Below are positions 19,464 through 20,088 of a DNA stretch of 64,000 bases, piece by piece. The notes under the pieces are model-generated. The model was not told where the DNA came from. It saw only the letters and a list, made by a program, of their open reading frames with translations, and searched no databases. Position 1 is the first letter of the stretch; every line of letters begins with the position of its first letter. The stretch lies in assembly GCF_054482525.1 (NCBI RefSeq), contig NZ_CM137006.1; one strand, written 5' to 3'. The translations under genes and the position numbers were made by a program.

Positions 19464-19683
19464 CCGCTACCGCGCCATCAAATGGCGCGGTATTCAACCC
19501 GATCTCCATAGTTTGAATCATTTCTGTACTGTTGTTTCTTCAGTGTTATGTAAAAGGTGAGCCTTATTATCGGCATGAAAACAGGGGATTGACGATGTTG
19601 AAGTAACAAAAAACCATAAATGGTTTATCATGCATAATGCTTTACTGTTCAGGAGGTAGTTATGCATATAAACGGTGGAAAAC

Positions 19684-20088
19684 ATGTCAGCTCAACTAAC
19701 CAGTGAAACTTTAAATCAGTGGCTTAGCATGAGTTCTCTGGCGGCGGTGATAGCAGGAGTTCCTCCTGAGGTTGCTTTGGGGGCTTTGGCTGGAGCGGTA
19801 ATTTTTGTTACCTCTGCGGTAGAGTATCCCATTCGTCGTCGTGTACTCTTGTCGATGCTTAGCTTTCTCTGCGGCCTTCTTTTTTATAAACCAGCAGCAT
19901 CAATTCTTATCGGCATAGCCAGCATGATCCCTACTATCACGCAGGACTCTTTTGAAAAAGGGATTGTTTTCTCTGCTGGCGCATTCGTGTCAGCAATTGT
20001 TGCTGTGCGTATTGGTATATGGCTCTACCACCGTTCCGATAATCCACGCGAGTTAATTCCGGGGAGAAAAGACGATGGTAACGCATGA
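19684..20088 (+). CDS. Holin/antiholin-like membrane protein, ~134 aa
   Basis: Track ORF 19675..20088; ATG at 19684. Several predicted membrane helices; first gene of the lysis cassette. Confidence 0.4.
   Translation: MSAQLTSETLNQWLSMSSLAAVIAGVPPEVALGALAGAVIFVTSAVEYPIRRRVLLSMLSFLCGLLFYKPAASILIGIASMIPTITQDSFEKGIVFSAGAFVSAIVAVRIGIWLYHRSDNPRELIPGRKDDGNA

What the first reader, a model, noticed from the sequence alone, without database searches (positions are those of the whole stretch)
19464..19700. Hairpin, promoter-like element and a 14-codon upstream ORF with a strong Shine-Dalgarno before the lysis cassette
After the 94-aa gene there is a perfect 8-bp inverted repeat (ACCGCGCCatcaaatGGCGCGGT, 19466..19488), then a TTGACG hexamer, then AGGAGG followed by a 14-codon ORF (MHINGGKHVSSTNQ) whose 3' end overlaps the start of the holin-like gene. 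The holin-like gene itself has only a weak ribosome-binding site, so its translation may be coupled to the short ORF, which would be a timing control for lysis.
Basis: seen in the sequence. Interest (0 to 1): 0.3.

Follow-up and report, generated by a model that had tools for sequence, protein, structure and literature searches.

The report
Structured leader gating a lysis-cassette uORF

Summary
The window holds an epsilon15-like (Uetakevirus) prophage in an E. coli chromosome. The first hairpin is an 11-bp perfect stem (19468-19492) with no T-run. TTGACG (19589-19594) has no convincing -10 partner and is kept only in close relatives.

AGGAGG (19651-19656) and the 14-codon uORF (19662-19706) form the 3' arm of a long hairpin (19623-19673). 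That hairpin is kept in 78 of 80 distinct relatives, with compensatory changes and a strong G·U over A·C bias, so it folds in + strand RNA. GenBank annotates the epsilon15 copy as a putative RNase III site.

The uORF start is kept in 79 of 80 sequences, but its frame, length and peptide are not. It is always out of frame and ends near the holin start. The holin gene has its own invariant GGTGG Shine-Dalgarno sequence and is not clearly occluded.

Best reading: a hairpin-gated leader start that tunes translation of the first holin gene, depending on where the transcript begins and/or on RNase III. The mechanism is inferred, not shown. Interest is moderate; I rate it a new variant of a known kind.

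The parts
19179..19463 (+). 94-aa membrane-protein gene upstream of the region. It is not part of the conserved module.
   Evidence: ORF list. Matches phrog_1443, unknown function, with no Pfam hit. RefSeq calls it a hypothetical protein.
19468..19492 (+). Hairpin 1: an 11-bp perfect stem with a 3-nt loop, 5 nt after the stop of the 94-aa gene, with no U-tract.
   Evidence: It is conserved only in relatives that carry the 94-aa gene. Variants are GGTGCGG (G·U on the + strand) and a flipped loop.
19589..19594 (+). TTGACG hexamer. It is -35-like but has no good -10 partner.
   Evidence: Kept as TTGACR/TTTACG only in the window-type subgroup.
19612..19623 (+). AACCATAAATGG: the conserved palindromic box (CCATAWATGG) at the sharp 5' edge of the conserved module.
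   Evidence: Per-position information jumps from under 0.7 to over 1.5 bits at this edge. There is one exact copy in the window, and a related CCATATGTGGTTT at 16292-16304.
19633..19638 (+). CATAAT, a -10-like hexamer inside the 5' arm of the long hairpin. TATCAT at 19626-31 with GTAACA at 19603-08 is an alternative.
   Evidence: Relatives have TATGAT or TATAAT, and phiV10 has TTAACC-17-TATAAT (10/12). The last T is invariant although it is often mismatched in the stem.
19623..19673 (+). Long RNA hairpin of 22 bp. The 5' arm is 19623-19646, the loop is UGUU at 19647-50, and the 3' arm is 19651-19673. One bulge in each arm, plus unpaired A19644.
   Evidence: Energy -16.8 kcal/mol, z = -3.7. The covariance model hits 19621-19676. 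78 of 80 relatives fold alike. 89.9% of cells are paired and 8 of 24 pairs show double-sided change. G·U to A·C is 285 to 15. The epsilon15 copy is annotated 'RNaseIII'.
19651..19656 (+). AGGAGG, the Shine-Dalgarno sequence of the uORF, base-paired in the 3' arm.
   Evidence: duplex -11.7 kcal/mol.
19662..19706 (+). uORF of 14 codons plus TGA, in the +1 frame relative to the holin-like gene.
   Evidence: Not annotated in RefSeq or in the phage records.
19674..19678 (+). GGTGG, the invariant Shine-Dalgarno sequence of the holin-like gene, immediately 3' of the hairpin.
   Evidence: Invariant or nearly invariant columns in A2. Duplex -6.4 kcal/mol.
19684..20088 (+). 134-aa Phage_holin_8 family gene, the first gene of the lysis cassette.
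   Evidence: Pfam PF16931, E = 4e-12; phrog_198 holin. The same start is annotated in epsilon15, phiV10, Tyrion, EC.W1-9 and RefSeq.
20075..21496 (+). Rest of the lysis cassette: Phage_holin_3_7 (20075-20383), GH19 endolysin (20373-21002) and DUF2514 spanin (20999-21496).

Best explanation
The conserved unit is an approximately 75-nt leader module (19612-19686) in front of the two-holin lysis cassette of epsilon15-like phages. A long + strand RNA hairpin base-pairs a strong upstream start site (AGGAGG plus AUG). That start opens a short, out-of-frame ORF that runs across the holin gene's own GGTGG/AUG and stops 20 nt past the holin AUG.

When both arms are in the RNA, as in read-through from the tailspike and 94-aa genes, the hairpin forms and the upstream start is shut. 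The duplex is then long enough to be an RNase III substrate.

When the 5' arm is absent, the upstream start is open. This would happen in transcripts begun at the -10-like CATAAT embedded in that arm, or after processing. Ribosomes that load there terminate next to the weaker holin start and set how much of the first holin is made. The most likely route is termination-reinitiation (coupling).

Shown: the hairpin, its strand, its conservation, and the conservation of the upstream start.

Inferred: the two transcript classes, RNase III cleavage, and the direction of the effect on holin translation.
For: Hairpin. The window copy is -16.8 kcal/mol with z = -3.7. 78 of 80 distinct relatives fold into the same single hairpin, with mean z = -5.4. 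On an alignment not fitted to the structure, 89.9% of cells are paired against 36-58% for slid partners, 8 of 24 pairs change on both sides, and 0 of 500 shuffles reach the covariation score. G·U outnumbers A·C 285 to 15, so 91.7% of cells pair on the sense strand against 74.0% on the antisense strand.

Upstream start. The ATG is kept in 79 of 80 sequences and is usually held as a U·G wobble. The mean Shine-Dalgarno duplex is -11.1 kcal/mol. The stop always lies within -14 to +28 of the holin AUG, although the frame and peptide differ.

Sequestration. The unpaired probability of the uAUG is 0.02 with both arms present and 0.50 without the 5' arm.

Embedded promoter. The -10-like hexamer is the most consistent promoter-like site across 82 upstream variants. 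phiV10 scores 10/12, and conservation starts exactly at the -35 position. The last T of the hexamer is invariant although it is mismatched in about half the sequences.

Parallel design. Tail-fibre gene leaders of the same phages have a -10 (TAGAAT, varying at position 3) directly followed by a 5' arm whose 3' partner overlaps the Shine-Dalgarno sequence.

Prior annotation. The epsilon15 GenBank record labels the homologous 24755-24817 as 'RNaseIII, mRNA processing'.
Against: No transcription start site, cleavage or translation data exist for any member. The epsilon15 paper could not be read.

The holin gene's own GGTGG/AUG are only moderately structured in either transcript class, so dependence on the uORF is unproven.

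In some window-type relatives the hexamer is CGTAAT and lacks the key A.

In epsilon15 and phiV10 the upstream genes are divergent, so read-through is less obvious there.

BUCT711 and L063 lack the module and have the holin gene directly behind the upstream gene or a terminator.

The effect in the tail-fibre leader is modest: Shine-Dalgarno unpaired probability is 0.37 against 0.60.
Confidence: 0.4

Rival explanations
1. The hairpin is simply a 5'-UTR or intercistronic RNase III processing or stabilising stem-loop, as annotated for epsilon15. It separates the lysis mRNA from upstream RNA or sets its half-life. The AUG and G-rich run are by-products of pairing with a T-rich 5' arm and are never used for translation.
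For: The 22-25-bp stem is conserved and strand-specific. The uAUG is almost fully paired. The peptide and frame are not conserved. GenBank carries the label.
Against: Pairing alone would favour A over G opposite U. Yet G of the ATG is kept in 65 of 66 sequences, mostly as a wobble, and GGAGG/GGGGG is kept at correct spacing in two otherwise different arm sequences. The uORF never runs far and always stops next to the holin start.
Confidence: 0.27
2. Decoy-start competition, working like the lambda S sdi stem-loop. Ribosomes that start at the uORF run over the holin GGTGG/AUG and block it. The hairpin sets the ratio of unproductive to productive starts, and so delays lysis.
For: The two start sites are 22-23 nt apart and mutually exclusive, and the uORF is always out of frame. 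The stem covers only the upstream start. In lambda S, an RNA stem-loop that includes the RBS sets the ratio of the two starts (PMC3369941).
Against: A decoy need not be hidden in a -17 to -33 kcal/mol stem. In phiV10 the uORF stops 5 nt before the holin AUG, which favours reinitiation rather than blockage. No in-frame dual start exists.
Confidence: 0.15
3. One reading: the uORF is translated constitutively from a TTGACG-driven late transcript and passes ribosomes to a weak holin start. The hairpins are incidental.
For: The uORF has a strong Shine-Dalgarno sequence (-11.7 against -6.4 kcal/mol) and its stop lies near the holin start.
Against: TTGACG has no -10 partner and is not conserved outside the subgroup. 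The uORF start is paired in any transcript from that position. The hairpin shows covariation.
Confidence: 0.08
4. A DNA-level element: the inverted repeat and the CCATAWATGG box are binding sites for a phage regulator, with no RNA role.
For: The box is a perfect 10-bp palindrome. It recurs near repressor operators upstream of several epsilon15 transcription units.
Against: For the long repeat, G·U to A·C is 285 to 15, and compensatory changes argue for single-strand RNA pairing. Arms of 24 nt are far longer than a protein site needs.
Confidence: 0.05

Closest known systems
Lambda S gene sdi stem-loop with dual-start motif (holin S105 / antiholin S107)
   Same: An RNA stem-loop at the 5' end of a holin gene covers the upstream of two closely spaced start sites and is thought to tune lysis timing (PMC3369941).
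   Different: In lambda the two starts are in frame, two codons apart, and give two proteins. Here the upstream start is 22-23 nt away and out of frame, and gives a non-conserved 12-14-aa peptide. The stem is also far longer (22-25 bp).
RNase III-processed leaders and intercistronic sites (lambda N leader, T7 early mRNAs); the epsilon15 GenBank 'RNaseIII' feature at 24755-24817
   Same: A long, imperfect double-stranded stem in a phage mRNA just upstream of a gene start. The epsilon15 feature is the direct homologue of window 19621-19676.
   Different: Cleavage has not been shown for any member. The lambda and T7 comparison rests on my own knowledge. Those sites do not enclose a conserved extra start site.
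Fold-back protection of transposase genes (IS10/IS50 read-through transcripts; IS200 5'UTR stem that sequesters an AAGGGGGU Shine-Dalgarno sequence)
   Same: An inverted repeat whose 3' arm holds a near-perfect Shine-Dalgarno sequence. IS200 uses the same AAGGGGGU that most relatives have here (PMC4513863). In IS10 and IS50 the native start lies inside the repeat, so only outside transcripts fold (my own knowledge).
   Different: Here the sequestered start belongs to a uORF, not to the protected gene itself, and the internal transcription start is only inferred.
hok/mok of plasmid R1 and MS2 lysis gene (translation of a small lethal membrane protein coupled to an overlapping reading frame)
   Same: Expression of a membrane-damaging protein is made dependent on ribosomes that translate or terminate an overlapping frame, with RNA folding as the gate (my own knowledge).
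   Different: No antisense RNA partner is seen here, since no minus-strand promoter was found downstream. The holin start has its own Shine-Dalgarno sequence. Coupling is untested.

Membership tests
Translationally coupled upstream ORF (termination-reinitiation) | The upstream ORF has a functional-looking start (Shine-Dalgarno sequence plus start codon at proper spacing). | tested here: met
   AGGAGG, 5 nt, ATG. Duplex -11.7 kcal/mol. The ATG is kept in 79 of 80 sequences.
Translationally coupled upstream ORF (termination-reinitiation) | The upstream stop overlaps or lies very near the downstream start. | tested here: inconclusive
   In the window the stop begins 20 nt after the holin AUG. In most relatives it is at +13, and in phiV10 at -5. 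It is never the classic ATGA/TAATG overlap except nearly so in phiV10.
Translationally coupled upstream ORF (termination-reinitiation) | The downstream start is weak or occluded unless the upstream frame is translated. | tested here: inconclusive
   The window's Shine-Dalgarno sequence is weaker (-6.4 kcal/mol), but GGTGG is invariant. Predicted unpaired probability is 0.26-0.6 in both transcript forms.
Translationally coupled upstream ORF (termination-reinitiation) | Downstream expression falls when the upstream start is mutated. | not testable with these tools
   This needs reporter fusions.
RNase III processing site | About 20 bp or more of double-stranded RNA formed by the transcribed strand. 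| tested here: met
   22 bp in the window and 24 bp in the epsilon15 type. The G·U bias fixes the + strand.
RNase III processing site | Cleavage by RNase III in vivo or in vitro. | not testable with these tools
   Only a GenBank prediction exists. No paper was found.
Lambda-type dual-start holin motif | Two in-frame start codons a few codons apart, giving holin and antiholin. | tested here: not met
   The upstream ATG is out of frame (+1 or +2). The in-frame GTG at 19675 has no Shine-Dalgarno sequence.
Fold-back inhibition with promoter inside the repeat (IS10/IS50 type) | The 3' arm of an inverted repeat contains the start site. | tested here: met
Fold-back inhibition with promoter inside the repeat (IS10/IS50 type) | The native transcription start lies within or after the 5' arm. 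| tested here: inconclusive
   A conserved -10-like hexamer lies in the 5' arm (8-10/12 in relatives, 7/12 in the window). There are no transcription start data.
Intrinsic (rho-independent) terminator, for hairpin 19468-19492 | A GC-rich stem followed by a U-tract. | tested here: not met
   The stem is present, but ATTCAACC follows it. The scan does not call it.
Sigma-70 promoter at TTGACG | A -35 and a -10 hexamer 16-18 bp apart, conserved in relatives. | tested here: not met
   The best partner is AACCAT (3/6). The hexamer is absent outside the window-type subgroup.
Any Rfam family | A match at or near the gathering score. | tested here: not met
   The best hits in 18500-21000 score 15-18 bits against thresholds of 33-50.

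The most novel reading that the evidence does not exclude
Uetakeviruses may use self-insulated expression cassettes. In each one a promoter sits inside the 5' arm of an RNA hairpin, so only self-initiated transcripts expose the start site in the 3' arm. For the lysis cassette this would be a leader-ORF start that feeds the holin gene. Any transcript that reads in from the frequently swapped upstream modules (tailspike, O-antigen conversion genes) would fold shut and be cut by RNase III. The same design in the tail-fibre leader suggests a general plug-and-play rule that lets mosaic exchange happen without premature lysis.
Probability: 0.25. Interest if true: 0.6.

Novelty: new variant of a known kind. 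Interest (0 to 1): 0.4.

Why it matters
Lysis timing is a key fitness trait for phages. Known controls act mostly at the protein level (holin/antiholin) or through late transcription.

This would be a conserved RNA device that hides a strong start site in front of a two-holin cassette and links its exposure to transcript origin or RNase III. That is a translational safety catch on a lethal operon that sits at a prophage end, next to lysogenic-conversion genes.

It is directly testable. It also matters for engineered phiV10, SPN1S and epsilon15-type reporter or therapeutic phages, where insertions near this site could change lysis.

Tried and rejected
- Rfam scan of 18500-21000: only sub-threshold noise.
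- RNAalifold on the MAFFT alignment gave a weak consensus (-0.7 kcal/mol), because the apical stem of the window-type rows is misaligned. Per-sequence folding and a covariance-model alignment resolved this.
- Within the epsilon15-type subset alone there is almost no covariation. The signal comes from comparing subtypes.
- The covariance model found no second sense-strand copy in the window, in epsilon15 or in the searched loci.
- The minus-strand 55-aa ORF (19518-19685) is broken in close relatives, at 21-56 aa, so I rejected it.
- A programmed frameshift from the uORF into the holin frame was rejected on reading the sequence: the required shift differs between subtypes (+1 versus -1) and there is no slippery heptamer.
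- An in-frame GTG dual start (19675) was rejected because it has no Shine-Dalgarno sequence.
- I looked for a consistent promoter upstream of the conserved block. Candidate -10 positions are scattered, and only the L034 type has a good one, TTGACC-17-TAATAT.
- An alternative pairing of 19573-81 with the 5' arm is not conserved.
- Literature: the epsilon15 genome paper is not held. Searches for epsilon15 with RNase III, holin or promoter, and for SPC32H promoters, gave nothing on this leader.
- The search for related loci returned only relatives at 93% identity or above. More distant ones were fetched from phage records instead.

Full report
Context. The region lies in an epsilon15-like (Uetakevirus) prophage in an E. 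coli chromosome, next to yfgI/yfgH. The gene order on the + strand is:
- a 924-aa tailspike (16368-19142);
- a 94-aa membrane protein of unknown function (19179-19463; phrog_1443);
- a 220-nt gap;
- a lysis cassette made of a 134-aa Phage_holin_8 protein (ATG 19684), a 102-aa Phage_holin_3_7 protein, a GH19 endolysin and a DUF2514 spanin.

Epsilon15, phiV10, Tyrion, EC.W1-9 and RefSeq all start the first lysis gene at the ATG that corresponds to 19684. None annotates the uORF.

Checking the observation. Every item exists, but with small errors.
- The first inverted repeat is at 19469-19491, not 19466-19488. It extends to an 11-bp perfect stem with a 3-nt loop at 19468-19492. Its energy is -19.4 kcal/mol with z = -5.1. 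No T-run follows, so it is not a canonical terminator.
- It is kept only in relatives that carry the 94-aa gene, with G·U-compatible changes.
- TTGACG is at 19589-19594. Its only -10 candidate at 17 bp is AACCAT. The promoter scan finds no more sites than chance in this region (4 against 4.1 expected) and none uses TTGACG.
- AGGAGG is at 19651-19656. The uORF runs from 19662 to its TGA at 19704-06.
- Taken alone, AGGAGG-N4-8-ATG is not rare enough to mean much: 4 in the window against 1.44 expected.
- The holin gene has a GGTGG 5 nt before its ATG. It is weaker than the uORF site (-6.4 against -11.7 kcal/mol) but invariant in relatives.

Folding 19600-19720 pairs AUGCAUAAUGCUUU.AC with AGGAGGUA.GUUAUGCAU and extends this with GUUUAU/AUAAAC. 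The result is a 22-bp hairpin at 19623-19673. Its 3' arm contains both the AGGAGG and the uORF AUG.

I collected 119 viral contigs that share the holin 5' end and aligned 80 distinct upstream regions.
- Folded one by one, 78 of 80 form the same single hairpin. Mean z is -5.4. The epsilon15-type copies reach -33 kcal/mol, and the window copy is -16.8 kcal/mol with z = -3.7.
- On the MAFFT alignment, which is not fitted to any structure, 89.9% of cells pair, against 36-58% when partners are slid. Eight of 24 pairs change on both sides, and no shuffle reaches the covariation score.
- On a covariance-model alignment of 66 distinct sense-strand copies, G·U cells outnumber A·C cells 285 to 15. That gives 91.7% pairing on the + strand against 74.0% on the other strand.

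The structure is therefore selected in + strand RNA. It is not a DNA palindrome or an antisense RNA. The epsilon15 GenBank record already labels the homologous stretch 'RNaseIII, mRNA processing'. I found no experimental support for that label, and the genome paper is not held.

Is the uORF real? The evidence points both ways.

In favour:
- The ATG is kept in 79 of 80 sequences.
- Its G is usually held as a U·G wobble where A would pair better.
- A GGAGG or GGGGG run sits at correct spacing in two subtypes whose arms otherwise differ.
- The uORF always ends near the holin AUG, at -14 to +28.

Against:
- The frame differs: 64 sequences in one frame with 12 codons and a TAA stop, 16 in the other with 14 codons and a TGA stop.
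- The peptides of the two classes are unrelated.
- PhiV10 has 6 codons and L051 has 3.

The start site and the place of termination therefore look selected, and the peptide does not. In RNA that contains both arms, the uAUG is paired (unpaired probability 0.02). Without the 5' arm the probability is 0.50. The holin GGTGG/AUG are moderately open in both cases.

The conflict, and the model that resolves it. Conservation begins abruptly at AACCATAAATGG (19612). The most consistent promoter-like site in 82 upstream variants is a -10 hexamer inside the 5' arm. It is CATAAT (19633-38) in the window and TATGAT or TATAAT elsewhere, with a -35-like TTAACC at the edge of conservation. PhiV10 scores 10/12. 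The last T of the hexamer is invariant even though it is mismatched in about half of the stems.

A transcript from that promoter would lack the 5' arm and would expose the uORF start about 8 nt from its 5' end. A transcript that reads in from upstream would fold. Both the RNA pairing and the promoter-like conservation make sense only if two transcript classes exist. This is the logic of fold-back protection known for IS10 and IS50 (my own knowledge). It also resembles the IS200 leader, which hides the same AAGGGGGU Shine-Dalgarno sequence (PMC4513863).

The upstream neighbours of this module are mosaic. They can be divergent conversion genes (epsilon15, phiV10), a co-directional O-antigen acetylase (PAS61), or tailspike modules (the window). 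Insulating a lethal operon from such neighbours is a reasonable purpose.

Tail-fibre gene leaders in about 60 loci show a parallel layout:
- a -10 hexamer TAGAAT that varies at position 3 (and at position 4 in one sequence);
- a 5' arm that starts 2-3 nt later;
- a 3' arm that overlaps the Shine-Dalgarno sequence;
- covariation, seen as CCGG...CCGG and GGATGG...CTATCC.

The predicted effect there is modest.

Limits. No transcription start site, cleavage or translation data exist. The direction of the uORF's effect is open: coupling, or competition as with the lambda S stem-loop (PMC3369941). Some window-type relatives have CGTAAT instead of CATAAT. The module is dispensable in BUCT711 and L063. 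Hafnia phage yong2, at 35% identity, has a different leader stem.

Verdict. The real feature is a conserved hairpin-gated leader start in front of the lysis cassette. It had been noted only as a predicted RNase III site. Its mechanism is inferred with moderate confidence (0.4). I rate it a new variant of known kinds of translational control, of moderate interest (0.4).

Noticed in passing
window 16245-16304; L124 (epsilon15) 2932-2999, 19896-19951, 24704-24762, 35907-35964: The epsilon15 repressor operator TTACC-N5-GGTAA occurs 15 times in epsilon15, against 0.6 expected. It is followed 30-40 nt later by a (C/T)CATATRWGGTT box and a -10-like hexamer upstream of several transcription units. The window has a perfect operator (16245-16259) and box (16292-16304) before the tailspike gene, but only the box (19614-19623) before the lysis cassette.
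   Followed up: partly
window 16292-16304 and 19614-19626: The tailspike and 94-aa gene block is bracketed by two copies of CCATAWRTGGTTT. It looks as if this block was inserted into what is a single promoter/leader region in epsilon15, making this a mosaic-exchange boundary.
   Followed up: no
window 16322-16356 (leader of tailspike gene 16368): The stem CCAGATA...TATCTGG overlaps the tailspike Shine-Dalgarno sequence (GGAG). It starts 2 nt after a TAGAAT -10 and is conserved in about 60 loci, with compensatory variants (CCGG/CCGG, GGATGG/CTATCC). Predicted Shine-Dalgarno accessibility is 0.37 in read-through RNA and 0.60 in short RNA.
   Followed up: partly
window 19479-19481 loop region of hairpin 19468-19492; L004, L019, L028, L103: Read with the inner 8-bp stem, relatives carry either ATCAAAT or its reverse complement ATTTGAT as the loop. 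The loop seems to have been flipped between the inverted arms.
   Followed up: no
L210 (Klebsiella phage BUCT711) 387-395; L063: Two relatives lack the whole hairpin/uORF module. In BUCT711 the holin gene starts 8 nt after the tailspike-like gene. In L063 it follows an intrinsic terminator. These are natural controls for function.
   Followed up: partly
window 19754-19768: A local hairpin CAGGAG-TTC-CTCCTG lies inside the holin gene (codons for AGVPPE). Its CCUCCU can pair with the uORF AGGAGG in predicted folds of short transcripts, giving a uORF Shine-Dalgarno unpaired probability of 0.01. This is probably a coding coincidence.
   Followed up: no
window 19675: The mechanical ORF list starts the holin-like ORF at an in-frame GTG (MENM...). 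No Shine-Dalgarno sequence precedes it, and all annotations use ATG 19684.
   Followed up: yes
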